A stretch of 64,000 nucleotides of DNA, taken from assembly GCA_031423495.1 (NCBI GenBank), contig JANPFP010000125.1:19865-83864 (forward strand), given 5' to 3'. Position numbers and translations under genes: made by a program. Source of the DNA: Acidobacteriota bacterium (GTDB lineage: Bacteria; Acidobacteriota; Blastocatellia; RBC074). Each line of letters begins with the position of its first letter. Positions within the stretch are counted from its first letter, which is position 1. The notes under the pieces are model-generated. The model searched no databases. It was not told where the DNA came from and saw nothing but the letters and a program-made list of their open reading frames with translations. Positions 267-57,193 of this stretch are shown in pieces.

Positions 267-1937
267 ATGAACTTTCTCGAACACATCTTTCGCCACCTAA
301 GCAAAACGCCTCATCGTCCGGTCGTCCGCGAAATCATTGACGGGCAGTTCGTCACGGTGACGTGCGGCGAATTGCTCGCGCAGATCAACGCGGCGCGTAC
401 GTTCATCCGCTTATCCAAGCTGCAATCCGGCGACCGCGTAGGCTTGCTCGCGCCCAATTCGATTCGTTGGGCGGCGATGGATTTGGCCTTGATGGCCGAG
501 GGCGTCGTCGTCGTACCGCTTTACGCGCGGCAAGACCCGAAAGAGTTGGTCGGCATGCTCAGGGATTGCGGTGCGGGCTTGGTCGTATGCGCCGATGAAT
601 CTTTACGTAAAGGCATCGCCGACCATTGGCCTAAAGACAGCGGAGCCTTTCCGCCGCCGCTGAAATTATTCGACGACATCTTTGCTCATACGCCTGACAG
701 CGCGCTCGACGACACGCCCAATGCTCGTAAAGATGAAGACCTCGTGACGATTATTTATACGTCGGGAACTTCGGGCGAACCCAAGGGCGTGATGCTGAAT
801 ACGACGAACCTGAATCACATGGTTCCTTGCACGGGCGCGCGCCTCGACCAATTGATGGAAGGCGCGACCGACAACGTAGCCGATCAGGTCTTTCATTATT
901 TGCCGTTCTGTTTTGCCGGTTCGTGGATTCTGTTGCTCACCGCCTTGTCGCGCCGCAGCCTGTTGTCGCTCTCGATGGATTTGAACAAGCTCGCCGACGA
1001 ACTCAAACTCGCCGCGCCGAACTATTGTTTGAACGTGCCTACGTTGCTCGAACGCATTCGCACGGGTGTTGAGAACCAAATCGCTACGAAACCCGGTGTC
1101 ATTCAATCGATCTATCAAAACGGCAAGGCCGCGTGGTTGCGTCGGCAGGAAGGGCAGGGCGGCGCGTTTGATACGTTGCAATTCAAGCTGGCGGACTGGC
1201 TGATTTTCAGCAACGTCAAAAAGAAAATCGGCGTGCAACTCAAAGCGTTGATTTGCGGCTCGGCTCCGCTGAACAAAGAGACGCAGCTTTTCTTTCAGAT
1301 GCTGGGCATCAAGGCGTTGCAGGTTTACGGATTGACCGAGACGACGGCCATTTGCACAATGGATGACCCGCGCGCTTATGTGCCGGGTCGCGTAGGCCCC
1401 GCCATCCCCGGCATCGAAATGCAACTGGGCGAAGGCGACGAAATCATCATTCGCGGGCCGCATATTTTCGCGGGCTATTGGAATAAACCAGAGGCTACGT
1501 CGGCGGCGTTGCGCGACAGCTGGTTCCATACGGGCGATCAGGGCGCGGTGGATGCGCAAGGCAATTGGGCCATCACCGGACGCCTCAAGAACCTGCTCAT
1601 TCTCAAATCGGGCCACAACGTCGCGCCCGAACCGCTCGAAGAAAAGCTCGCCTTCCACTTGCCCGCCGCGCAACAGTGCGTAGTGTTCGGCAATGATCGC
1701 GGCTTCCTGACGGCGCTCATTACGGGCGAAGTGAGTGCGACACAGGCCGACACCGCCGTCGCCCAACTCAACGCCGACCTGCCGCATTACAAACAGGTAC
1801 GCGCTTATCACCTGAGCAAAGAACCGCTCACGATTGAAAGCGGCTTGCTCACGGCGAACGGCAAACTCAAACGCGACGCCATCGCCAAACATTTCGTGGC
1901 GGAAATCGAAACGATGTATAGCAATACAAAGGCGTAG
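267..1937 (+). CDS. AMP-dependent synthetase/ligase (long-chain-fatty-acid--CoA ligase-like)
   Basis: 556 aa. AMP-binding motif [12 protein letters not shown], later YGLTET and GDxG/TGR regions; typical acyl-CoA synthetase length. Confidence 0.8.
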
Positions 1938-1940
1938 CAG

Positions 1941-2097
1941 TGTCCGTAGCCCGACCGTTAGAGAGGGCTACCGTCACGAGGCGCTTGTTGATGCCGAAGG
2001 GCGCTATGCCGAGATAGCCCTCTCTAACGGTCGGGCTACGGACACAAAAAGGGCGCAATGCCGAGGTAGCCCTCTCTAACGGTCGGGCTACGGACAC
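1941..2097. repeat. Palindromic intergenic repeat, family 1: full copy plus adjacent duplicated half copy
   Basis: GTCCGTAGCCCGACCGTTAGAGAGGGCTAC ... GTAGCCCTCTCTAACGGTCGGGCTACGGAC forms 30-nt inverted arms around a ~45-nt core. The right arm is duplicated again at 2051-2097. Near-identical arms recur at 53304-53410 and 57061-57189. Confidence 0.8.
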
Positions 2098-2195
2098 AAA
2101 ACCGTTCCCGCAAAATTGAAAGGCAGGCCAATTCATCAGCGGGCAATGATGCCAATCGTTCAACGGCTGGTCATTGGAATTCAGGCCGATACATC

Positions 2196-2423
2196 GGCCT
2201 TTCCCGCAGGGCGATTAGGCCAGCCGTTCAACGGCTGGTAAGCCGAGAGATATTTTGGATAGCCCGTTTGAACGGGCTTCCCAAAACTGGCTTCAGCCAA
2301 CGGGTTTCGACGCCCATCGGCTAAAGCCAGACACGAGAAAGACGCTAAAAGCGCCTTAACCGCAAACCGTCGCGCTTTACCAGCCGTCGAACGGCTGGCC
2401 TAATCGCCCTCGCGGGAAAGCCC
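2196..2423. mobile_element. MITE-like element with ~45-bp terminal inverted repeats
   Basis: Left arm GGCCTTTCCCGCAGGGCGATTAGGCCAGCCGTTCAACGGCTGG (2196-2238). Right arm at 2380-2423 is its reverse complement with 2-3 mismatches. An internal hairpin AGCCCGTTTGAACGGGCT is present, and an extra CGTTCAACGGCTGG core copy lies at 2146-2170. No coding capacity. Confidence 0.55.
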
Positions 2424-2666
2424 GATGAACGGGCTGGCAGATGTCACGCAGCGACTGCGTAAAAACGAACCGAAGAAAGGCTGATTCAATATGTTCATTT
2501 TGGCTGGCACATGCATCTTTCTCAGCATCGTGCTGGGCATTATGGGTTTGATGGCGTGGGGCGCGATGACGACGGAACCTCCAACGGATGAGCCAGCGTC
2601 GAGCGAGACACCGATACCACAGACCAATGAAGACTCCGAAAATTAAAACAGTAATACCTCATCACT

Positions 2667-3587
2667 ATGCCAATTCCTGATTATCAAACCTTGATGCTGC
2701 CGCTGCTCAAATATGCTGCTGATGAGCAAGAACACTCTTTGCGCGAAGCCATTGAATCGTTGGCTGATCAATTTCAACTCTCTGATGAGGATAGAAAAGA
2801 ACTACTTCCAAGCGGACAACAAGCTAGGTTTGATAATCGGGTTGGATGGGCGTGCACCTATCTGAAGAAAGCAGGTCTTTTAGAAGGATCAAGACGCGGG
2901 TATTTTAGGGCCACTGAACGAGGGCGTTCGGTATTGGGTAATGACCTTCAACGCATTGACCAAGCATACTTGCGCAAATTTCCTGAGTTTGTTGAATTCC
3001 AAAATCGCAGCAAAAGAAATTCTGACGAGGACGCGGTTTCACCTGAAATTGAGCAAAACGTTGAGATGACTCCAGAGGAATTAATTGAGTCTGCTCACCA
3101 AAGTTTGCGAGAAAATTTAGCTGCCGAGCTTTTGCAAACTATCAAAGGTTGTTCCCCTAATTTTTTTGAGCGCCTCGTCGTTGATTTGCTTTTGAAGATG
3201 GGCTACGGCGGCACTCGGCGCGACGCTGGCAAAGCTATCGGCAAGAGTGGAGATGGTGGAATTGACGGCGTCATCAACGAAGATCGGTTAGGTCTGGACG
3301 CTGTTTATATTCAAGCCAAAAGATGGGAAGGCTCTGTAGGCCGACCAGAAATTCAAAAATTTGTTGGCGCGTTACAAGGCCAACGAGCGCGCAAGGGCAT
3401 TTTTATCACTACATCATGGTTCACACGGGAGGCATTTGATTACGCTGGCAGAATTGAAAGTAAGGTCATTCTTATTGACGGCGAACAGCTTGCTCAATAC
3501 ATGATTGATTTCAATGTTGGTGTTTCTATCATCGCCAATTACGAACTCAAGAAAGTTGATCAGGATTACTTTACTGATGAACTATAA
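2667..3587 (+). CDS. mrr: Mrr-family methylation-dependent (type IV) restriction endonuclease
   Basis: 306 aa. Mrr_N-like winged-helix N-terminus. Mrr_cat core GKSGDGGIDGVINEDRLGLDAVYIQAKRW... is the Mrr-type PD-(D/E)xK variant (D..QAK). The gene is clearly AT-richer than its flanks. Confidence 0.75.
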   Translation: MPIPDYQTLMLPLLKYAADEQEHSLREAIESLADQFQLSDEDRKELLPSGQQARFDNRVGWACTYLKKAGLLEGSRRGYFRATERGRSVLGNDLQRIDQAYLRKFPEFVEFQNRSKRNSDEDAVSPEIEQNVEMTPEELIESAHQSLRENLAAELLQTIKGCSPNFFERLVVDLLLKMGYGGTRRDAGKAIGKSGDGGIDGVINEDRLGLDAVYIQAKRWEGSVGRPEIQKFVGALQGQRARKGIFITTSWFTREAFDYAGRIESKVILIDGEQLAQYMIDFNVGVSIIANYELKKVDQDYFTDEL

Positions 3588-5472: not shown

Positions 5473-5694
5473 ATGAAAATGGAAGACGATGAAGTCATGA
5501 AAGAAGTGCGCCGGGTACGCGATGAAATAGCAGCGCGTTTTAATTACGATGTTGATGCAATCGGCGCGCACTACCTTGAATTGCAAGAAAAGAGTGGAAT
5601 CAAGACCGTCTCTCTGCCGCCAAGAAAACCAGTATGTTTGCCGACGAATGAAGTCTCGGCGGATTTTGAGGAAGTGGCGGCTTTGCCGCAGTGA
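5473..5694 (+). CDS. Small hypothetical protein (73 aa); 3' end lies inside a repeat arm
   Basis: ORF with acidic N-terminus. Its last ~6 codons are encoded by the left TIR of the 5678-5893 element. Coding status uncertain. Confidence 0.25.
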   Translation: MKMEDDEVMKEVRRVRDEIAARFNYDVDAIGAHYLELQEKSGIKTVSLPPRKPVCLPTNEVSADFEEVAALPQ

Positions 5695-5893
5695 TGTGCG
5701 GAAAGTCTCTGACTTTCCGGTAGGCTGATAAACCTATCGGGCTACGCCCGTAACGTCACTGAGGTTAAGTCCCAACGGCTTTCGTCTTCGTCAATTTTGG
5801 TTGATTGATTGACGCTGCGGGCATAGCCCGAAGTGAAAGTTTGCCCCCTGCCGGAAAGTCAGAGACTTTCCGCACATCACTGCGGCAAAGCCG
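5678..5893. mobile_element. MITE-like element with 44-bp perfect terminal inverted repeats
   Basis: GCGGCTTTGCCGCAGTGATGTGCGGAAAGTCTCTGACTTTCCGG (5678-5721) is the exact reverse complement of 5850-5893. The ~130-bp internal AT-richer segment has no ORF. Confidence 0.55.
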
Positions 5894-5914
5894 CAAAGAA
5901 AGTTTGGTAAGGAA

Positions 5915-7408: not shown

Positions 7409-7416
7409 ACAGTACG

Positions 7417-7477
7417 TAGTCCCGCCTTCAGGCGGAATGTCGTGATAGCCGAGACATTCCGCCTGAAGGCGGGACTA
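7417..7477 (+). terminator. Long perfect hairpin (27-bp stem), probable terminator/REP-like element
   Basis: AGTCCCGCCTTCAGGCGGAATGTCGTGATAGCCGAGACATTCCGCCTGAAGGCGGGACT immediately after the stop at 7408. Confidence 0.5.
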
Positions 7478-7491
7478 CATGCAATTTTCAT

Positions 7492-7734
7492 ATGAAAACT
7501 CTCGAACAAATCATTGATGAAATCCTGACGCTCGCGGCGACCCATTTCAAAGTCGAACGCGCGGCGCTCACACCGACCGACGACTTTTTCAAAACGCTGG
7601 GCATTGACAGTTTGCAGGCGCTCGAATTGCTCACACGGCTCGAAAACCATTTCGGTGTCGAACTGCCTGATTACGAAGTGCAAGGCGTAAGCGACTTTCG
7701 CACGCTGGCCGAGCGCATCGAAGCCCGGCTGTAA
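7492..7734 (+). CDS. Acyl carrier protein (phosphopantetheine-binding)
   Basis: 80 aa. Helix II motif [11 protein letters not shown] with the Ser attachment site. Confidence 0.75.
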
Positions 7735-7838
7735 ACCGTGACTCCGACGAAGTTGAAACCACGTCGGAAGAAAACGCATAATCCCAGCCATCCCCATCAC
7801 GCTTCCCCCATCATTCGTTAAATTCAACGAGGTATCGC

Positions 7839-31197: not shown

Positions 31198-31658
31198 TGG
31201 CAAAAGATGCGTTGCCAATCGTGCGACATTCGCTGCAAGGCTACGCTGACTGCGGAGTCTTTCGCGGCTTCAGCGAAAGCAAACTGGGGCAATTCAAGTT
31301 CGTCTGGCTGCTGCAACATCAGATGGACTTGCACCTCGACACCGCCAAGCAGGAGTTGCGTTTCAAACAATTGCTGCCGGGCTTGCCTGCACGTTCGGCG
31401 TTGTATGCCGAACTCAAACAATTCATCGCGGAGCGCCACGACCGCGCGCTGCCCGAACATCGCCGCGTAGATCGTCGTCGCGCCGAAGCAACCTGTTCAA
31501 ACCGCAGCGGCTTCGTTTCGCTCACGTTGACGGTCAAAAAGAATCAATACGAATACGGCGTGAATCGTCTGGTGAATCTGGTGCATGAATTGTTTTTGCA
31601 CCTGCGCGAACATCACCCTGAATACTTAGTGGAGAATTTCAATGTACCGCAAGAGTAA
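31197..31658 (+). CDS. Hypothetical protein translationally coupled to higA
   Basis: 153 aa. Its start overlaps the higA stop and its end overlaps the cytochrome c start. No recognisable motif. Confidence 0.35.
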
Positions 31659-32058
31659 GTGGCTAGTGGTTAGCGGCTGTTGGCTAGTTATCAGTTTGAC
31701 GCTAGTCGTAATCGCACAAGAGCCGCGCCGCAATGCCGAAGCGCAGAAGCTCAAGAATCCTGAACCGAAAAACGCCGAGACCATCGAAGCAGGCAAGAAA
31801 CTTTATGCACGGCATTGCGCTTCGTGTCACGGGCCGCAAGGCAAGGGCGACGGCGGCATGGCGTTGGCAGGCGGTGCGCCGTCTGATTTGACTGACGAGG
31901 CGTGGGATTACGGTTCGACCGACGGCGAAATTTTCGTAGCCATCCGCGACGGCGTGTCTGCCGACATGCTGGCTTATCAAGACAAACTCGACGACAAGCA
32001 AACTTGGCAGGTCGTAACTTTTATTCGCAGTTTAGGCCCGAAGGAAGAAAAGAAATGA
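31642..32058 (+). CDS. Class I c-type cytochrome
   Basis: 138 aa. Signal/TM N-terminus. Heme motif CASCHG followed by a distal Met region. Confidence 0.7.
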
Positions 32059-44065: not shown

Positions 44066-44245
44066 CTCGAAATTATTGCCAGTCAGGGTGTATGAACGTC
44101 ATGGCGCTCAATATTCTCCATTCCTTATTCTCAATTCTTCGACAGGTACAGCCTTTTTCTTGTGGAAGAATTGAGAATAGGGAATGGAGAATGTCGGCAT
44201 TCAAAGGAAACGCCTTTGAACCAAATTCAACTGCCGACCATTGCC

Positions 44246-44686: not shown

Positions 44687-44783
44687 AAGAAGAGTGGCTA
44701 GTGGTTAGTGGTTAGTGGCTAGTTGGCGAGCTTTATTCACTAGCCACTAACCACTAACTGCTAGCCACTAACTTTGCAGGTGT
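44687..44783. repeat. Long palindrome built from TAGTGGCTAGTGG-type units (REP/terminator-like)
   Basis: GAGTGGCTAGTGGTTAGTGGTTAGTGGCTAG...CTAGCCACTAACCACTAACTGCTAGCCACTAAC. A related palindrome lies at 55366-55441. Confidence 0.6.
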
Positions 44784-45334: not shown

Positions 45335-45658
45335 ATGACGAATCAACTGAACCGCCTTACGCCTGCGCTCGAGAGTGACGACCTGATGCGTACGCTCAGG
45401 TTTTATACCGAGGTGTTGGGTTTTGAATGCGTCGCGCGCTGGCCTGAACACCGCCGCGAATTCGCTGCGTCGCCGCCGCCGCTGTTGACCGGCTCGCTCT
45501 ATTTCAACACCAACGACGTCGAAGCGTGGTGGGAACGTTTGCGCGCGCGCGCGACGGTTGAGTATCCGCTTGAGACTTTCGATTACGGCATGCGCGAGTT
45601 CGCTATTCGGGACGATTGCGGGTACCTGTTGCAGTTCGGTCAAGACGTGACCGATTAA
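45335..45658 (+). CDS. VOC/glyoxalase-bleomycin-resistance family protein
   Basis: 107 aa. VOC-fold pattern (FYTEVLGFE...). Confidence 0.5.
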   Translation: MTNQLNRLTPALESDDLMRTLRFYTEVLGFECVARWPEHRREFAASPPPLLTGSLYFNTNDVEAWWERLRARATVEYPLETFDYGMREFAIRDDCGYLLQFGQDVTD

Positions 45659-45721
45659 ACAAAAGAAAGGCCGCGCGAGTTTCGACGCCGCGCGGCCTTT
45701 CTTACAGCGAGTTTAGCCAGC

Positions 45722-50807: not shown

Positions 50808-50948
50808 CCACGATCAACCCAAACCATTTGATGACCGGCATTGTCACTTATCCATTTTCAATTGTTAGGCAGGGGTAAACCTTAATAACGACGGCCTTTG
50901 CCAATAATTTAAAATGGATAAGGGATAATGCTGGTCGCCAATGTGAAG

Positions 50949-51964: not shown

Positions 51965-52048
51965 ATGCTCCTTGGTTTTAGCATGTAGTACCGGCTTCAG
52001 CCGGAACGTTTTGGTTGTTGAAACATTCCGGCTGAAGCCGGTACTACA
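51965..52048. repeat. Long near-perfect palindrome (~34-bp arms), REP/terminator-like
   Basis: TTAGCATGTAGTACCGGCTTCAGCCGGAACGTTTTGG|TTGTTGAAACATTCCGGCTGAAGCCGGTACTACATGC between two minus-strand genes. Confidence 0.55.
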
Positions 52049-52054
52049 TGCGCT

Positions 52055-53281
52055 TTATATTTCCCGTCGCAGCGGCGCGACGATGTTTGCGATGAGTGTG
52101 CCTGCCACTAAAGCGACAGCAGTCAGAATCATTTTGAAGGTCGTGTCTACGCCAGAGATGACCTGTTTGTCGAGCAGGGCGGCGAGACCGCGAAAGCCTA
52201 CGCTGCCCGGTACGAGCAGCAAGATGCCCGGCACTTGCGTGATCAACGCCGGACGATCAAAGGCGCGCGCATAACAACGGCTGGCGACGCCTACGACGAG
52301 TGCGCCGATGAACGCGCCGAGGTCAGAGCCGAACCAGCGCGTACCCGCTTGGCTGCCAATGACGGCGAGCGCACCGGCGACGGCGATCCAGATGGCGTCG
52401 CGGGCTTTGGCGCGCAGCAAGACGGTGAACGCGAGCGACATCGCAACGATAGCCAACCATTCCGTCCACGCGGGCAAGGCGACAGCGCGCGCGATGCGCG
52501 GTTCGTCGAGCCACGCGGTGATCAGCGTATTGCCCATCGCTACGCCAAAGCCCATGCCGAGGAAGGTGACGAAAGCCGAACTCAACCGCGCCGTGCCCGA
52601 CGCCAAATGTTGCGTAGACAATTCGATCATCGCCACCGTCAGCGTGAGGCCGGGCATAAGGATGATGAGGCCCGCCAGCGCCGCGTTCGACACGGCAAAA
52701 GCGCCGAACACCAAACTAAACGCCGCCGCCAGAAACGTAGCCACAAACGCCGCCATCGGTTCAAAGACGCGCCCGACTGACGACCACCGCCCCGCGAGCA
52801 GCGCGAGCAAGCCGATGACAAAACCCAACACCGCAGACAATCCGATCTCTTTCAATCCTCCCCCTAAAAAGCGCGAAGCCGCCGCCGAAGCCAACGCGAA
52901 AGCCATGACAGTCAACGGTTGCGAATAGCGCGCAGGCGCGGCTTCTATTTCTTCAATGCGTTGTGAACCATTCGTCACGCTCTCATTGCCGCGCAATACG
53001 CCCACGGCGACGGCATCGAGATCGGCGAGTTTGCCGAGGTCTTGTCCGCCGGGGTTTACGCGCAAAAGATAAGTGTGCTGCTGTTCTTCACGACCGAAGG
53101 CCGCAAAAATCGAAGTCGGCGTCGAAAAGAATTGCCCTTCCAAGCCGAGCTTCTGTGCCGCGCGTTCGAGAATATCTTCGAGCCGATGCGCGGGTATGCC
53201 GTAACTGTGCAAGGCGCGCGCGAGTCGCAAGACAAAGCCGATTTCGGCGCGGGTTTCAGTTGGTGGTTGAAGTTCAGTCAT
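52055..53281 (-). CDS. ThrE-family (YjjP/YjjB-like, DUF1212+DUF3815) putative amino-acid/carboxylate exporter
   Basis: 408 aa. N-terminal soluble region then ~10 TM helices. Confidence 0.55.
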   Translation of the reverse strand: MTELQPPTETRAEIGFVLRLARALHSYGIPAHRLEDILERAAQKLGLEGQFFSTPTSIFAAFGREEQQHTYLLRVNPGGQDLGKLADLDAVAVGVLRGNESVTNGSQRIEEIEAAPARYSQPLTVMAFALASAAASRFLGGGLKEIGLSAVLGFVIGLLALLAGRWSSVGRVFEPMAAFVATFLAAAFSLVFGAFAVSNAALAGLIILMPGLTLTVAMIELSTQHLASGTARLSSAFVTFLGMGFGVAMGNTLITAWLDEPRIARAVALPAWTEWLAIVAMSLAFTVLLRAKARDAIWIAVAGALAVIGSQAGTRWFGSDLGAFIGALVVGVASRCYARAFDRPALITQVPGILLLVPGSVGFRGLAALLDKQVISGVDTTFKMILTAVALVAGTLIANIVAPLRREI

Positions 53282-53303
53282 TTCATTTTGCTAACGCGGC
53301 AGC

Positions 53304-53410
53304 GTGTCCGTAGCCCGACCGTAAGCGAGGGCTGCCTTGACGATGCGCTTGATGATGCCGAAGGGCGCAACGCCAAGGCAGCCCTCGCTTACGGTCGGGC
53401 TACGGACACG
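53304..53410. repeat. Palindromic intergenic repeat, family 1 (copy 3)
   Basis: GTGTCCGTAGCCCGACCGTAAGCGAGGGCTGCC...GGCAGCCCTCGCTTACGGTCGGGCTACGGACAC. The central GATGCCGAAGGGCGC core is shared with the 1941-2045 copy. Confidence 0.8.
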
Positions 53411-53411
53411 G

Positions 53412-54236
53412 TCATTCAAACAGTCCGCCTTGTTGTGGTTCCAGTCCCAGCACTTCGCGCACCGGACGAAAGCTGCGGCGATGGATGGGCAGCGCGCCGC
53501 GTTCGCGCAAGGCCGCGAAATGTTCCGGCGTCGGATAGCCTTTGTGCGAAGCGAAACCGTAACCCGGATAGGCGCGTTCGAATTCATCCATCAGCGCATC
53601 GCGCGCGGTTTTCGCCAAAATCGAAGCCGCCGCAATGCTCGCCGACAGGCTGTCGCCTTTGATGATGCCGCGTTGCGGTTGCTTGATGACGGGGATGGTG
53701 CGCGCGTCTACTAAAACGTAATCAGGCTTTTGCGCGAGCGATTCGACGGCGCGGCGCATCGCCAGCAGTCCGGCGTGATAAATGTTCAGGCGATCAATTT
53801 CGACAGGTTCGGCTTGCGCGACGGCCCACGCGACGGCGTCGGCTTTGATTTGCACGGCGAGCTTTTCGCGTTGCGCGGCGTCGAGCTTTTTTGAATCGTT
53901 GAGTTCGCGCAACTTGTAACCTTCGGGCAAGATGGCGGCGGCAGCGACGACCGGGCCAGCGAGCGGGCCGACACCGGCTTCGTCTACGCCGGCGACGAAT
54001 TTGAAACCTTGCTGCCAGAGTTCGTTTTCGTATTTCAGCAAGAAGCGCAATCGCTGGCCTTCGATTTGATTGGCCTGACGACGCTTGCGCAATTGTGCGG
54101 CGAGTTGGCGTGCGCCGCTGCGCGCGTCTTGTTCCAGCGCGATGAGCAAGCCTTGCGGCACGGCGTTATCGTCGTCCAGCAAACGAGCTTTGAGTTGCGT
54201 GACGGGCAGCGCCAGCCATTCGTCGAGTGAAGTCAT
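53412..54236 (-). CDS. rnhB: Ribonuclease HII with N-terminal extension
   Basis: [20 protein letters not shown] catalytic DEAG motif. RNase HII core ~190 aa preceded by ~80 extra residues. Confidence 0.75.
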
Positions 54237-54386
54237 CAGTAGTGAATCCGTTTTCTTGGGTTGAACGTAAAACCTGAAGCGCAGCGATTATAGCGATACG
54301 TTGCTTGGCGTCACACGCGGGCGTCGGAATAAAATGCGCAGCCGATGTGATAAAGATGAAAGCGAATCATTCGTGCGAGAGAAACT

Positions 54387-55364
54387 ATGCTCATAAAAAA
54401 AACTGACGACATCAAAAGCAGCGAAATCACCAGCGAAAGCGTTTATCTGAATCGCCGCAATTTCATTCGCGCGGCGACGCTGGCTGGGACGGTAGGCGCT
54501 TCGGGCTTGCTCTATCGCCGCTTGAATCCTGCCAGCCAGAAAACCGCTGTGCCAGTGACGGCGGCGAATAACACTGTCTCTGCCAGCTATCGCACGCCCG
54601 AAGGCGAAGCTGCGAATTCATTCGACGACATCACGACCTATAACAACTTTTATGAGTTTGACACCAGCAAGAGCGGCGTAGCCTCAGCGTCGCAAGGTTT
54701 CATCACGCGCCCGTGGACGGTGCGCGTAGAAGGTCTCGTCAATGAACCGCGTACCTTTGATCTCGACGATTTGCTCAAGCTCGCGCCGCTCGAAGAGCGC
54801 GTCTATCGCTTTCGTTGCGTCGAAGCCTGGTCAATGGTCATCCCGTGGTTGGGCTTGCCGCTGGCGACATTGCTCGCCGCCGTCGAACCGATGAGCAATG
54901 CGAAATACGTCAAGTTCGTCACGCTTTTTGATAAGCAACAGATGCCGAACCTGCGCACCGACATTCTCGATTGGCCTTACGCCGAAGGCTTGCGAATGGA
55001 TGAAGCGATGAATCCGCTGACGCTGTTGGCGAGCGGGTTGTATGGCAAATCGTTGCCGCCGCAAAACGGAGCGCCGCTCAGATTGGTTGTGCCGTGGAAG
55101 TACGGATTCAAGAGCATCAAGTCCATCGTGCAAATCGTGCTGATGGAAGAACAGCCGCGCACTACGTGGAATATGGCGAACGATGAAGAGTACGGTTTTT
55201 ATTCCAACGTCAACCCGCAAGTAGACCATCCGCGCTGGAGCCAAGCCACTGAACGTCGCATCGGCGGCCTCTTCGGCTCGCGCATCGAAACCAAAATGTA
55301 CAACGGATACGCCGATCAAGTCGCGTCTATGTACGCAGGCATGGACTTGAAGAAAGATTTTTAG
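54387..55364 (+). CDS. msrP: Protein-methionine-sulfoxide reductase catalytic subunit MsrP (YedY, molybdopterin)
   Basis: 325 aa. Tat signal [13 protein letters not shown]. Sulfite-oxidase-like Mo domain ([11 protein letters not shown]). Confidence 0.8.
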
Positions 55365-55365
55365 T

Positions 55366-55441
55366 CGCTAGTGGCTGGTGGCTAGTGGCTAGTTTTTTCT
55401 AGCCGCGACTAGCCACTAGCCACCAGCCACTAGCCACTATT
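55366..55441. repeat. Palindrome of TAGTGGCTAGTGG-type units between msrP and msrQ
   Basis: GTCGCTAGTGGCTGGTGGCTAGTGGCTAGTTTTTTCTAGCCGCGACTAGCCACTAGCCACCAGCCACTAGCCAC. Related to 44687-44783. Confidence 0.6.
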
Positions 55442-55442
55442 T

Positions 55443-56072
55443 ATGACCAAGCAAGACATTCAATTCGCCAAGTACGTCGTATTAACCAACAGCCTCTTAC
55501 CGCTCGCGTTGTTGTTGTGGGATTGGTCGCGCGGGCAATTGGGCGCGAATCCGTTGGAGTATCTGACGCATACGACGGGTACGCTGACGCTGATCTTTTT
55601 GTGTGTATCGCTTGCCGTCACGCCGCTGCGCAAAGTGCTGGCGCAACCGTGGCTGGGGCAGGTGCGGCGAATGTGCGGCTTGTTCGCGTTCTTTTATGGC
55701 TCAGTGCATTTGCTGACGTATGTGTGGTTCGACAAGTCGTTTGGGCTGTCGGTGATTCTGAAAGACGTGGCACAACGCCGCTTCATCACCTTGGGCATGT
55801 TGAGTTGGCTGGTGATGTTGCCGCTGGCGCTGACTTCGACGAATGCGATGGTGAAAAAGTTAGGCGGCAAGCGTTGGAACCGTTTGCACAAGCTAGCTTA
55901 CGTCGCGGCGATTGCCGGAGTCGTCCATTATTACCTGTTGGTCAAAGCCGACATCACCAAGCCCGTCGCGTTTGGCGTTGTGGTCGCTGTGTTGTTGGCC
56001 TATCGCGTGGCGAATAAGTACTTGCCCGATTGGACGCAGCGCAAACCGGTACGGGCTGTGACCGTGCGTTAA
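55443..56072 (+). CDS. msrQ: MsrQ (YedZ) heme-binding membrane subunit
   Basis: 209 aa. Six TM helices. Conserved His residues for heme b. Immediately downstream of msrP. Confidence 0.75.
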   Translation: MTKQDIQFAKYVVLTNSLLPLALLLWDWSRGQLGANPLEYLTHTTGTLTLIFLCVSLAVTPLRKVLAQPWLGQVRRMCGLFAFFYGSVHLLTYVWFDKSFGLSVILKDVAQRRFITLGMLSWLVMLPLALTSTNAMVKKLGGKRWNRLHKLAYVAAIAGVVHYYLLVKADITKPVAFGVVVAVLLAYRVANKYLPDWTQRKPVRAVTVR

Positions 56073-56075
56073 TTC

Positions 56076-56165
56076 GTATCGCAACCTGTTAGGTTGCGAA
56101 GCCTTCACCAAAGAACCGATGGGCTAACACCCGAAGCCTTCGCAACCTGACAGGTTGCGATACCA
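56076..56165. repeat. Long palindrome (~30-bp arms), terminator/REP-like
   Basis: GTATCGCAACCTGTTAGGTTGCGAAGCCTTC...GAAGCCTTCGCAACCTGACAGGTTGCGATAC just after the msrQ stop. Confidence 0.55.
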
Positions 56166-56352
56166 AAAACTCTCAAAGCCTTCTCGCCAACTTAAATCCG
56201 TCGTAAGATGCGCCCGCATCTCCAAGCAAATTGAAAGTCAGTCCGATTTCTTGAACTTCCCCTGACGCCTTTCGTAACTCACACACGAAAGACGCCCGCA
56301 GTCGAAACGGCTTACAGTTCACTCGCAGCACGAGCCGTGGCGAGCGTTTTCA

Positions 56353-57045
56353 ATGATGGAAGCATTCTTATTCATTTCGCTTTTCCTGCTTGCCGTTGTA
56401 GGCATCGGCTTTTGGTTCGCCGCCAAGCCGCGACGCATTTCAACGGCACTCCCGACGAACAACACTTTTGCTCACGTGCCGCCGGGCCGCGCGCTTTTCG
56501 CCAACGAAGAAGCGGCTGCGGAATTCGTGGCGGCAGAAGCTGAACGCCTTGCGGTTGAGGCGCGCGAACTGCAATTGCAACGCGCGCACAGCGGAGACGT
56601 GTCGGTGTTGTCCGAAGTGCAAGAAGACGCTGCGCTTTATCGCGCGGCGTTGGATGCGCTAACTGAGGAAGCGAATGATGAGGCTGCGTTGCAAGCTCTG
56701 ACGCAAGCGGTGTTGCAACAAACTGACTGGCTGACTTCGCCGCGTTTGGCACAAGCGGTCATTCAACGTGTGCAGTCGTTCGCATTCAACGATGTATTGC
56801 ACACAGCAGCTTTGAGCGGTGACGCCGCGTGTTATCAGCAAGCGGTCGAAGCCGTACTGATAAACTGGCAAGCCGGAAAGTTGCCGCGATTGACAGCGGC
56901 GCAAGTGAGTGAATCCATCAAAAGCGAGTATTGGCTGCTCTCGTCTGAAGCCAGAAATTCAGGCGCAGGATTTTTGCTCAAACAGAAACTCGTTGCCGTG
57001 CGTCGTGAGCTAGCGGCGGTGGCGCAGCGGGTTTCGATCAAATAG
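56353..57045 (+). CDS. Hypothetical protein with N-terminal TM helix, Ala/Gln-rich
   Basis: 230 aa. Coding-like codon bias. No motif. Confidence 0.4.
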   Translation: MMEAFLFISLFLLAVVGIGFWFAAKPRRISTALPTNNTFAHVPPGRALFANEEAAAEFVAAEAERLAVEARELQLQRAHSGDVSVLSEVQEDAALYRAALDALTEEANDEAALQALTQAVLQQTDWLTSPRLAQAVIQRVQSFAFNDVLHTAALSGDAACYQQAVEAVLINWQAGKLPRLTAAQVSESIKSEYWLLSSEARNSGAGFLLKQKLVAVRRELAAVAQRVSIK

Positions 57046-57060
57046 TTCATTGAGATCAAC

Positions 57061-57189
57061 GCGAAGCGTGTCCGTAGCCCGACCGTTAGCGAGGGCTACC
57101 TTGAGGATGTTTTGATTGGGTTCGGTGACGCCGTTGCGTCCAGTGCCGAGGTAGCCCTCTCTTACGGTCGGGCTACGGACACGCTTCGC
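57061..57189. repeat. Palindromic intergenic repeat, family 1 (copy 4, extended arms)
   Basis: GCGAAGCGTGTCCGTAGCCCGACCGTTAGCGAGGGCTACC...GGTAGCCCTCTCTTACGGTCGGGCTACGGACACGCTTCGC. Confidence 0.8.
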
Positions 57190-57193
57190 GCAC

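What the first reader, a model, noticed from the sequence alone, without database searches (positions are those of the whole stretch)
1941..2097. Family of ~105-130-bp palindromic intergenic elements (GTCCGTAGCCCGACCGT...ACGGTCGGGCTACGGAC) present in at least 4 copies
Near-identical 30-nt inverted arms flank a short variable core at 1941-2045, with a duplicated right half at 2051-2097. Further copies lie at 53304-53410 and 57061-57189. The cores of copies 1 and 3 share GATGCCGAAGGGCGC, whereas copy 4 has a different core. All copies sit exactly at gene boundaries, within 1-5 bp of stop or start codons. Six-frame ORFs through them (e.g. VRSPTVREGY) are artefacts. They behave like REP/BIME or small MITE elements. 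They could act as terminators or mRNA stabilisers, or encode a structured sRNA.
Basis: seen in the sequence. Interest (0 to 1): 0.6.

Follow-up and report, generated by a model that had tools for sequence, protein, structure and literature searches.

The report
REP-doublet mobile hairpins of Acidobacteria
These intergenic palindromes are REPIN-like miniature mobile elements, made of two inverted copies of a 29-base REP unit, and relatives carry a matching tyrosine (HUH-Y1) transposase gene flanked by the same unit; this is a known kind of bacterial selfish DNA, seen here in a little-studied branch.

Summary
The window holds seven perfect copies of a 29-nt unit, GTGTCCGTAGCCCGACCGTNAGNGAGGGC. 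They form three inverted doublets (1940-2045, 53303-53410, 57060-57190) plus one extra right half (2046-2097). The same unit occurs in dozens of Blastocatellia (Acidobacteriota) genomes.

In seven of seven loci examined, a 175-185 aa HUH-Y1 transposase gene lies between inverted copies of this unit. Three of those loci were found by protein similarity alone. The gene passes Pfam Y1_Tnp, has an IS200/IS605/RAYT fold, and carries NHVH and Y-x4-Q motifs.

Protein and repeat match the rarely studied "class 3" TnpA-Y1 system of Quentin et al. 2018. The repeat has the same hairpin architecture as that paper's Solibacter and Legionella repeats.

There are no target-site duplications, and the two arms co-vary. 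One insertion (B) is shared by two species but lost in a third, which keeps only its first 9 nt. Site A's 540-nt insert is absent from the closest relative.

Verdict: REP/REPIN-type non-autonomous elements, a new member of a known kind. Terminator or sRNA roles are unsupported. Mobilisation by the transposase is inferred, not shown.

The parts
1940..2045 (.). Doublet A (102-nt family). Left REP unit 1940-1968 (+), core with GATGCCGAAGGGCGC, right REP unit 2017-2045 (-). Starts 2 nt after the CoA-ligase stop codon (1935-1937).
2046..2097 (-). Tandem (52-nt period) copy of A's right half. It holds one REP unit, 2069-2097 (-), with no partner of its own, i.e. a REP singlet.
   Evidence: (families D1/D2)
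53303..53410 (.). Doublet B (102-nt family). REP units 53304-53332 (+) and 53381-53409 (-). Lies between the rnhB stop (53412-53414, minus strand) and the thrE start (53279-53281). Present at the same site in L024, lost in L091, absent in L092/93/95.
57060..57190 (.). Doublet C (111-nt family with a different core). REP units 57068-57096 (+, TAGCG variant) and 57154-57182 (-, AAGAG variant). The palindrome extends into CGCGAAGCG / CGCTTCGCG.
   Evidence: (I6)
1934..2473 (.). 540-nt insert, relative to the closest relative (L096), that contains A, its half copy and other palindromic repeats. It is bracketed by ACAAAGGC (1926-1933) and AGAAAGGC (2474-2481). The ancestral gene end AAGAAAGGCTGA survives at 2473-2484.

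Best explanation
The elements are REPIN-type non-autonomous mobile DNA.

Anatomy. Each element is two inverted copies of a 29-nt REP unit, (C)GTGTC-C/a-GT|AGCCC-GA-CC-GTNA-GN-GA-GGGC, around a variable core. The whole can extrude as a ~100-nt hairpin in single-stranded DNA or RNA. The REP unit is the recognition sequence of a small HUH-Y1 tyrosine transposase of the 'class 3 TnpA-Y1' group. In related genomes that gene itself sits between two inverted REP units.

Proposed mechanism (inferred). The enzyme, supplied in trans, binds the small REP hairpin in single-stranded DNA, for example on the lagging-strand template. That hairpin has a GCCC/GGGC stem, a tandem G.A internal loop and a GTNA loop. 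The enzyme cuts next to the 5' 'foot' CnGT and moves or copies the doublet without making target duplications.

Likely consequences (inferred). Copies accumulate just past stop codons, where they do least harm. Their hairpins may secondarily affect mRNA 3' ends or the coupling of adjacent genes.

Shown here: repeat family, unit definition, association with the Y1 gene, absence of target duplications, arm co-variation, and gain/loss between relatives. Not shown: catalysis, the cut site, and any effect on the host.
For: 1. Repeat family. There are 7 perfect units in 64 kb. More than 86 loci were found in a truncated scan of species-representative genomes, nearly all Blastocatellia/Acidobacteriota, often at contig ends.
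2. Unit definition. In 139 arms, conservation runs from -3 to +26 with only two free positions.
3. Transposase association. Four loci found through the repeat carry a 175-185 aa ORF between or next to the arms (L080, L029, L051, L032). Three homologues fetched by protein similarity alone (L088, L089, L090) also have inverted REP units flanking the gene, 14-25 nt from its start and stop in L088 and L090.
4. Transposase identity. The protein passes Pfam Y1_Tnp at 28.9-30.2 bits against a cut-off of 23. NHVH, W and Y-V-x-x-x-Q are invariant. The AF2 model has pLDDT 80.8, and its 30 best PDB matches are all ISDra2, IS608 or IS200 TnpA or the E. coli RAYT 4ER8. JGI names many of the 3908 homologues 'REP element-mobilizing transposase RayT'.
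5. Match to published class 3. The motifs, ~178 aa length and taxa fit. The class-3 repeats in Table S1, such as Solibacter CAGAGCCGCGACCGTTAGGGAGCG with structure ((((..((....))..)))), align without gaps to our unit. The stem change CCGC/GCGG to GCCC/GGGC is compensated.
6. Inner hairpin pair. The pair between positions 13 and 20 is compensated in 19 of 19 units where position 13 changes.
7. No target-site duplication at any tested boundary.
8. Arm co-variation. Pair 20-89 is UA16/AU6/CG2, pair 23-86 is CG19/AU4, pair 31-78 is AU19/GC4. Thirty cells carry a double change against 14.6 +/- 4 in shuffles, 0/500.
9. Turnover. B is filled in the window and in the outgroup L024, but its closest relative L091 keeps only CGTGTCCGT joined to the right flank. 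More distant genomes have abutting genes. Site A's 540-nt insert is absent from L096.
Against: - No Y1 gene lies in the window itself (tblastn), and the window's own genome could not be searched. The cognate enzyme is known only from relatives, including a sister MAG at ~85% nucleotide identity.
- Activity of any class-3 Y1 protein has never been shown.
- The single REP unit folds only weakly as ssDNA, at -5 to -7 kcal/mol and not beyond shuffles.
- In the window's own lineage the inner 13-20 pair is broken: 70 of 134 units are AC|CG or AC|AG.
- The proposed cut site rests on one loss allele. Solo feet are not enriched (27 found, ~43 expected).
- Arm co-variation could reflect copying of REP variants rather than selection for a hairpin.
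- An 8-nt imperfect direct repeat brackets the composite insert at site A. A Y1 mechanism does not explain this, although other element families share that insert.
- One MAG has two Y1 genes (L029, L089), so 'single-copy domesticated RAYT' is not established.
Confidence: 0.85

Rival explanations
1. The elements are classical MITEs: internally deleted copies of an insertion sequence with a DDE transposase, whose terminal inverted repeats are the ~30-nt arms, moved by cut-and-paste with target-site duplication.
For: Arms are long, near-identical and inverted, like TIRs. The Y1 gene bracketed by the same arms looks superficially like an IS with TIRs. An 8-nt imperfect direct repeat flanks the composite insert at site A.
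Against: No target duplication is found at any boundary offset in 49 copies; counts equal the shuffled null. The only gene found between arms is an HUH-Y1 enzyme, not a DDE transposase. REP units also occur singly and in direct tandem arrays (L019, L053, L080), which TIRs do not. The site A repeat brackets a nest of several element families, so it cannot be assigned to this one.
Confidence: 0.04
2. The hairpins are host-selected RNA elements (mRNA 3'-end stabilisers, attenuators between co-transcribed genes, or a structured sRNA), and their spread is secondary to that function.
For: Folds are very stable on both strands, with compensated arm changes. Placement is 1-2 nt after stop codons at A and B. 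B sits between rnhB and thrE, which overlap or lie 8 nt apart in genomes without the element, so a -99 kcal/mol hairpin there should alter coupling. REPs in E. coli are reported as 3'UTR regulators (titles and abstracts listed).
Against: There is no Rfam family and no promoter or U-tract terminator at the elements. The asymmetric core faces opposite ways relative to the flanking genes in A and B. Cores differ between subfamilies. Close relatives do without the element at the same sites. The 29-nt unit, not the overall hairpin, is what is conserved between orthologous copies.
Confidence: 0.08
3. The REP-Y1-REP unit is an autonomous IS200/IS605-like insertion sequence that still transposes itself, and the doublets are its palindrome-associated deletion derivatives. 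This differs from a single-copy, vertically inherited RAYT with a REPIN population.
For: The Y1 gene is tightly bracketed by one inverted REP pair in L088 and L090. Its neighbours differ in every locus. In L088 the cassette sits inside the 3' end of an aminoacyl-tRNA synthetase gene. One MAG has two Y1 genes (L029, L089). Quentin et al. describe class 3 as resembling both IS and REPtrons.
Against: Several loci carry multiple REP units in arrays around the gene, REPtron-like (L080, L029, L089). The two genes in one MAG are only distantly related and carry different REP variants, as with separate RAYT/REP pairs. The paper's table lists 1.2 for class 3, read here as copies per genome. The loci compared are from different genera, so differing neighbours are weak evidence.
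Confidence: 0.2

Closest known systems
Class 3 TnpA-Y1 genes and their 'atypical' REP-like repeats (Quentin et al. 2018, PMC6006769; Solibacter usitatus, Legionella pneumophila, Planctomyces limnophilus)
   Same: Protein: ~178 aa with HuH NHVH, W[TA]-type W motif and Y-x4-Q tyrosine motif. Repeat: a 5' foot CnG(A/T), a 4-bp GC stem, a GA/GA internal loop, 2 bp, and a GTNA loop whose third base is variable. It aligns without gaps to CAGAGCCGCGACCGTTAGGGAGCG. Weak single hairpin, high copy number, and an Acidobacteria host.
   Different: - The stem is GCCC/GGGC rather than CCGC/GCGG.
- The foot is mostly CCGT rather than CnGA, although CAGA variants occur.
- Units are organised as ~70-135-nt inverted doublets with shared cores. 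The passages of the paper read here do not describe doublets.
- In the window's lineage the inner base pair is lost.
- The host class is Blastocatellia rather than Solibacter.
- Membership was judged by motifs and alignment, not with the authors' HMM.
REPIN-RAYT systems of Pseudomonas fluorescens SBW25 and E. coli BIMEs (Bertels & Rainey 2011, PMC3116915/PMC3337134; Nunvar 2010, PMC2817692)
   Same: Two inverted REP units separated by a spacer form a hairpin. Location is extragenic. The cognate Y1 gene is flanked by the same REPs. There are no target duplications. The arms evolve as a unit. Singlets and arrays occur alongside doublets. Pyrinomonadaceae have mixed-type doublets (type 1 plus type 2 arms), reminiscent of Y/Z REP pairs.
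   Different: The transposase belongs to a different Y1 class. It scores below the NCBIfam REP_Tyr_transpos cut-off (19 against 80 bits) and has Y-x4-Q rather than YIxxNP. The REP hairpin does not meet the canonical rule of GT[AG]G plus a fully paired stem of at least 7 bp. The host phylum is different.
IS200/IS605 insertion sequences (IS608, ISDra2) and their palindrome-associated derivatives
   Same: HUH-Y1 fold, with the best structural matches. Subterminal hairpins flank the gene, and no target duplication is made. The loss allele in L091 looks like a donor joint that keeps the left flank up to a short 'foot'.
   Different: No TnpB partner was seen. The ends are symmetrical rather than distinct left and right ends. 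The short elements greatly outnumber the gene. The protein scores below the NCBIfam IS200 cut-off (28.8 against 55 bits).
TIRYT/TIRtron elements of Acidobacteria (Di Nocera et al. 2013, PMC3733652)
   Same: Y1 transposase genes in Acidobacteria are flanked by long inverted repeats that can form moderately abundant families.
   Different: Quentin et al. place most TIRYTs in subclass 2.1, with HTH domains and GGGG[AT][CG]A[CG] repeats. Our protein has neither feature. Whether the acidobacterial TIRYT group equals class 3 was not tested.
Correia/NEMIS, ERIC and RUP-type MITEs
   Same: Size of ~100-150 bp, long inverted arms, intergenic location and strong RNA hairpins.
   Different: From my own knowledge, those elements have target duplications (for example TA for Correia) or no linked Y1 gene. 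Here duplications are absent and a Y1 gene is linked.

Membership tests
REPIN / REP-RAYT system | [quoted passage not shown] | tested here: met
   Three doublets are in the window. 46 doublets were extracted from the loci and window together. Folds are -78 to -100 kcal/mol.
REPIN / REP-RAYT system | Short repeat present in many extragenic copies per genome | tested here: inconclusive
No complete genome of this organism was available for a count.
REPIN / REP-RAYT system | A Y1 transposase gene flanked by the same REP units | tested here: met
   Met in 7 of 7 loci in relatives, 3 of them found by protein similarity only. No such gene lies in the window itself.
REPIN / REP-RAYT system | Canonical REP: 5' GT[AG]G, 0-2 nt from a fully paired stem of at least 7 bp with a 2-5 nt loop (rule quoted in PMC6006769 Methods) | tested here: not met
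   GTAG is present but overlaps a 4-bp stem followed by a GA/GA internal loop. The single unit folds at only -5 to -7 kcal/mol. This is the 'atypical' class-3 form.
REPIN / REP-RAYT system | Transposase is single-copy and vertically inherited | tested here: inconclusive
   One MAG has two divergent genes with different REP variants (L029, L089). Neighbours differ between loci from different genera.
REPIN / REP-RAYT system | No target-site duplication | tested here: met
   In 49 copies, counts of direct repeats equal the shuffled null at every boundary offset.
REPIN / REP-RAYT system | The doublet evolves as a unit (compensated changes between arms) | tested here: met
   Arms agree at the variable positions in 37/46 and 34/46 doublets. 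Thirty double-change cells were seen against 14.6 +/- 4 in shuffles, 0/500. The test does not separate hairpin selection from copying of REP variants.
REPIN / REP-RAYT system | The transposase binds and cleaves the REP and mobilises the doublet | not testable with these tools
   The only indirect hint is the loss allele in L091, whose breakpoint lies between CCGT and AGCCC.
Class 3 TnpA-Y1 (Quentin et al. 2018) | ~178 aa protein with NHVH, W[TA] and YV[VI][AENY]EQ motifs | tested here: met
   Proteins are 171-210 aa (mostly 174-186). N-H-V/x-H, W152 and Y163-V164-x3-Q168 are invariant in 22 sequences. Minor deviations: W followed by T, S or I, and E replaced by G before Q. The authors' HMM was not available.
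Class 3 TnpA-Y1 (Quentin et al. 2018) | Gene flanked by atypical weak hairpins with a 5' foot CnGA, present in high copy number | tested here: met
   The hairpin has the same ((((..((....))..)))) architecture and aligns without gaps to the Table S1 repeats. The foot is CnGT in most units and CAGA in some.
HUH-Y1 transposase superfamily (Pfam PF01797) | Profile match above the curated threshold, and a TnpA fold | tested here: met
   28.9 and 30.2 bits against a cut-off of 23. The top 30 Foldseek matches are all IS200/IS605 TnpA or RAYT. There was no sequence-level PDB hit.
DDE-type MITE | Target-site duplication, and TIRs matching an IS with a DDE transposase | tested here: not met
   No duplication. 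The only gene found between arms is a Y1 enzyme.
Intrinsic terminator | GC-rich hairpin followed by a U-tract | tested here: not met
   No element was called as a terminator, and the sequences after the arms lack T runs.
Curated RNA families (Rfam 15) | Match at the gathering score | tested here: not met
   0 matches in the whole window.

The most novel reading that the evidence does not exclude
These doublets may represent a third, independent REPIN-RAYT-like lineage built on class-3 HUH-Y1 enzymes. On this reading:
- The enzyme recognises a small hairpin with a tandem G.A internal loop and a GTNA loop.
- It cuts inside the GT|AG of the foot, as the L091 remnant suggests.
- REP variants co-evolve with transposase clades. 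AG[C/A]GAGGGC goes with the L080/L029 clade, and AGGGAGGGC with the rest.
- The lineage is large and old in soil Acidobacteria: more than 3900 protein clusters, insertions shared between species at ~85% identity, and the same hairpin plan in Solibacter, Legionella and Planctomycetes.

That would make class 3 a tractable 'missing link' between IS200/IS605 and REPtrons.
Probability: 0.35. Interest if true: 0.5.

Novelty: new member of a known kind. Interest (0 to 1): 0.35.

Why it matters
REP/REPIN-RAYT systems have been studied almost only in Gammaproteobacteria. The class-3 Y1 group is covered by one short section of one paper, which ends by calling for experiments.

This window and its relatives add several things:
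- Class 3 is abundant in Blastocatellia.
- Its repeat unit is defined to the base.
- The doublet is the common form.
- There is a candidate cut site.
- There are natural filled, lost and empty alleles at two sites.

Together these make a cleavage assay and an evolutionary study straightforward to design.

On the practical side, these repeats break short-read assemblies of soil Acidobacteria and create spurious ORFs. Annotation pipelines should mask them.

Tried and rejected
- Rfam at gathering threshold on the whole window gave 0 hits. ARAGORN found no tRNA or tmRNA.
- The terminator and promoter scan called nothing at the elements.
- tblastn of the Y1 protein against the window found nothing.
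- A PDB sequence search with the Y1 protein found nothing at E <= 1. Only the fold search worked.
- NCBIfam matches to IS200 and REP_Tyr_transpos were both well below their cut-offs, so the protein is not filed under either equivalog.
- The target-site duplication search at nine boundary offsets was negative.
- I tested whether 'solo feet' GTGTC[CA]GT mark frequent excision scars. They are not enriched: 27 found against ~43 expected.
- My first idea, that the GTAGCCC...GGGCTAC inner palindrome is the REP hairpin, was dropped. Only AGCCC/GGGCT is general, and the published class-3 fold fits better.
- A strict scan for canonical GTAG hairpins missed the window's other REP-like doublets, because their stems have one mismatch.
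- The window's own genome could not be recovered. The exact rnhB protein occurs only on a 1.7-kb Logan contig that ends at the repeat.
- L029 and L030 are syntenic only up to the Y1 locus, so that comparison did not show whether the Y1 cassette is an insertion.
- Non-acidobacterial 17-mer hits (Streptomyces, Hymenobacter, Variovorax and others) are single arms with no partner and match the number expected by chance.

Full report
**Observation.** The reported sequences are present at the stated coordinates.
- The 17-mer GTCCGTAGCCCGACCGT occurs seven times, against 0.12 expected.
- A 29-nt pattern finds the same seven units with no mismatch at any fixed position, and no decayed copies at up to 7 mismatches.
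- The units form three inverted doublets: A at 1940-2045, B at 53303-53410 and C at 57060-57190. One further right half at 2046-2097 is a 52-nt-period tandem copy of A's right half.
- Either strand folds into a long hairpin of -78 to -100 kcal/mol, with z-scores of -12 to -16.
- A and B share a core, and C has another.
- The claim that all copies lie within 1-5 bp of codons is true for A (2 nt after a stop) and for one side of B (1 nt after the rnhB stop). It is not true for B's other side (21 nt) or for C, whose extended palindrome lies 14 nt after a stop and 51 nt before the next start.

- Almost all loci are from Blastocatellia-type Acidobacteriota MAGs (Pyrinomonadaceae, Chloracidobacterium, Aridibacter). 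Many hits lie at contig ends, as expected for assembly-breaking repeats.
- The few hits in other phyla are mostly single arms without a partner (L043 carries a doublet), at about the number expected by chance.
- From the loci and window together I extracted 46 doublets of 54-259 nt.
- In 139 arms, conservation runs from position -3 to +26: (C)GTGTC[C/a]GTAGCCCGACCGT-N-AG-N-GAGGGC. Only two positions are free. Positions 0-16 are conserved by construction of the search; the rest is independent evidence.

**The associated gene.**
- Four of the repeat-derived loci contain a 175-185 aa ORF directly between or beside arms: L080, L029, L051 and L032.
- The ORF passes the Pfam Y1_Tnp threshold. It falls below the NCBIfam cut-offs for both IS200 transposase and REP tyrosine transposase.
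- It has 3908 homologues, many named RayT by JGI.
- As an independent test I fetched three homologues chosen only by protein similarity and contig length: L088, L089 and L090. All three have inverted units of the same family flanking the gene, 14-25 nt from the start and stop codons in L088 and L090.
- An alignment of 22 homologues shows invariant N-H-x-H, a W, and Y-V-x3-Q.
- An AlphaFold model (pLDDT 80.8) has as its 30 best PDB matches only ISDra2, IS608, IS200 and Sulfolobus TnpA and the E. coli RAYT 4ER8.
- No homologue lies in the window. L080 comes from the same MAG as L024, which is the ~85%-identical orthologue of window 52055-57041.

**Placement among known systems.**
- Quentin et al. 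2018 define a small 'class 3' of TnpA-Y1. These proteins are ~178 aa with NHVH, W[TA] and YV[VI][AENY]EQ motifs. They occur in Planctomycetes, Acidobacteria and Proteobacteria. [quoted passage not shown]
- Their Table S1 lists repeats such as CAGAGCCGCGACCGTTAGGGAGCG (Solibacter) and CCGAGCCGCGACCGTAAGGGAGCGGA (Legionella), folded as ((((..((....))..)))).
- Our unit aligns to these without gaps: CnGTA-GCCC-GA-CC-GTNA-GN-GA-GGGC. It has the same plan, the stem change CCGC/GCGG to GCCC/GGGC is compensated, and the same loop position is variable.
- The GAGGG variant of our unit is predicted to adopt exactly that shape.
- Across 134 units, whenever position 13 changes (to G or A), position 20 changes to its complement, in 19 of 19 cases. 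Foot variants include CAGA.
- In the window's own lineage (AG[C/A]GAGGGC) that inner pair is broken.
- No paper in the searchable library links Blastocatellia to REPs or REPINs.

**Behaviour as mobile DNA.**
- No target-site duplication is detectable at any boundary offset.
- The two arms of a doublet agree at the two variable positions in 37/46 and 34/46 cases.
- On 24 aligned members of the 102-nt family, three stem pairs show clean compensated variants. Double-change cells number 30, against 14.6 +/- 4 in shuffles.
- Site B:
  - The rnhB-thrE-adh synteny is conserved.
  - The window and L024 carry the element at the same nucleotide position. The arms are nearly intact, one change is compensated (GTAAGCG/CGCTTAC against GTTAGCG/CGCTAAC), and the core is far more diverged.
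  - L091, the window's nearest relative (88-91% against 85% for L024), has only TAAC-CGTGTCCGT-TGCCGCG. That is the first 9 nt of the element joined to the right flank.
  - Three more distant genomes have overlapping or 8-nt-spaced genes there.
  - Loss in L091 is the most parsimonious reading. The breakpoint falls between the foot CCGT and AGCCC. This is a single case, and solo feet are not enriched elsewhere.
- Site A:
  - The nearest relative, L096, has 6 nt between the CoA-ligase stop and a conserved small ORF.
  - The window has a 540-nt insert there holding A, its half copy and other palindromes. It still retains the ancestral gene end AAGAAAGGCTGA at 2473-2484.
  - L097 has a different palindromic family at the same spot.

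**Function.**
- The best-supported account is selfish, non-autonomous DNA moved in trans by a class-3 Y1 enzyme acting on single-stranded DNA. The catalytic steps are inferred from the family.
- None of the copies has a U-tract or is called a terminator. There is no Rfam match.
- The asymmetric core faces opposite ways relative to the flanking genes in A and B. This argues against a dedicated sRNA.
- A secondary effect of a -99 kcal/mol hairpin placed between rnhB and thrE is plausible but untested.

**Verdict.** It is a new member of a known kind: REP doublets with a cognate Y1 transposase, in the little-studied class 3 and in a phylum where they have barely been described. Interest is moderate to low for a general reader and moderate for specialists in REPIN/RAYT or HUH enzymes.

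Noticed in passing
window 2098-2472: The rest of the site A insert is a nest of other palindromic repeats. One is a ~227-bp element with 53-nt inverted arms (2196-2248 and 2370-2422). There are also three or more copies of a CCAGCCGTTCAACGGCTGG hairpin (about 2153-2171, 2221-2239, 2381-2399).
   Followed up: partly
window 1926-1933 and 2474-2481: An 8-nt imperfect direct repeat (ACAAAGGC / AGAAAGGC) brackets the 540-nt insert, and the ancestral stop context AAGAAAGGCTGA is kept at 2473-2484. The present CoA-ligase stop TAG (1935-1937) lies in inserted or rearranged sequence. A Y1 mechanism does not explain the duplication.
   Followed up: partly
window 2491-2645: A 51-aa hydrophobic small ORF (MFILAGTCIFLSIVLGIMGLMAWGAMTTEPPTD...) lies directly downstream of the CoA ligase. 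It is conserved in L096 (1859-2038) and L097, and was below the 80-aa ORF list cut-off.
   Followed up: no
window 2667-3587: An Mrr-type restriction endonuclease gene lies between the small ORF and the enoyl-CoA hydratase gene. L096 and L097 have unrelated ORFs there, so this is a variable region next to the repeat nest.
   Followed up: no
window 7416-7478 and 51981-52051: Two inverted doublets belong to a different, canonical-looking REP family: GTAG-T-N6-TTCA-N6 (GTAGTCCCGCCTTCAGGCGGAA and GTAGTACCGGCTTCAGCCGGAA), with compensated stem differences. The L024 contig ends right next to the second one.
   Followed up: partly
window 31658-31689, 44690-44769, 55362-55439: This palindromic family is built from GCTAGTGG/GTTAGTGG-type short repeats. 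The copy at 55362-55439 lies where the L091 contig ends.
   Followed up: no
window 5677-5724 / 5847-5894; 56073-56166; 44113-44192; 50828-50941: Four more inverted-repeat elements are present: 48-nt arms at 98% complementarity, 122 nt apart; a doublet of CGCAACCTGTTAGGTTGCG hairpins; an AT-rich palindrome; and a 39-nt imperfect pair. The window is unusually rich in distinct palindromic families.
   Followed up: no
L017 4485-4743: This is a 259-nt copy of the doublet in which another inverted-repeat element (AGTGAGATTAAGGCAAGG...CCTTGCCTTAATCTCATTG) has inserted into the right arm. It carries a direct duplication of about 11 bp (CGCTTACGGTC), so it is a true TSD-making MITE nested in a REP doublet.
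   Followed up: partly
L088 9700-10900: The REP-Y1-REP cassette sits at the 3' end of an Asp/Lys-type tRNA synthetase gene. About 190 bp of the gene's end is duplicated on both sides; the second copy was called as a 64-aa tRNA-synt_2 fragment.
   Followed up: partly
L097 2322-2488: At the orthologue of site A, the sister MAG carries four copies of another palindromic unit (CTCCGTTAGGAGCGA / TCGCTCCTAACGGAG) instead of the REP doublet. The spot just past this stop codon looks like a hotspot for several element families.
   Followed up: no
L082 771-7795 versus window 45652-45663: The relative carries ~7 kb of extra DNA between a gene end and its terminator hairpin. A REP doublet sits at the right edge of the extra segment (7684-7785). 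The window has the uninterrupted arrangement.
   Followed up: no
L089 9805-10768 and 13205-13420; L037, L026, L003, L068: In Pyrinomonadaceae-type genomes, most doublets pair two different REP types: type 2, GTAGCCCGC[G/A]CGTNAG[C/T]AAGGGC, with type 1. This resembles the Y/Z REP pairs of E. coli BIMEs.
   Followed up: partly
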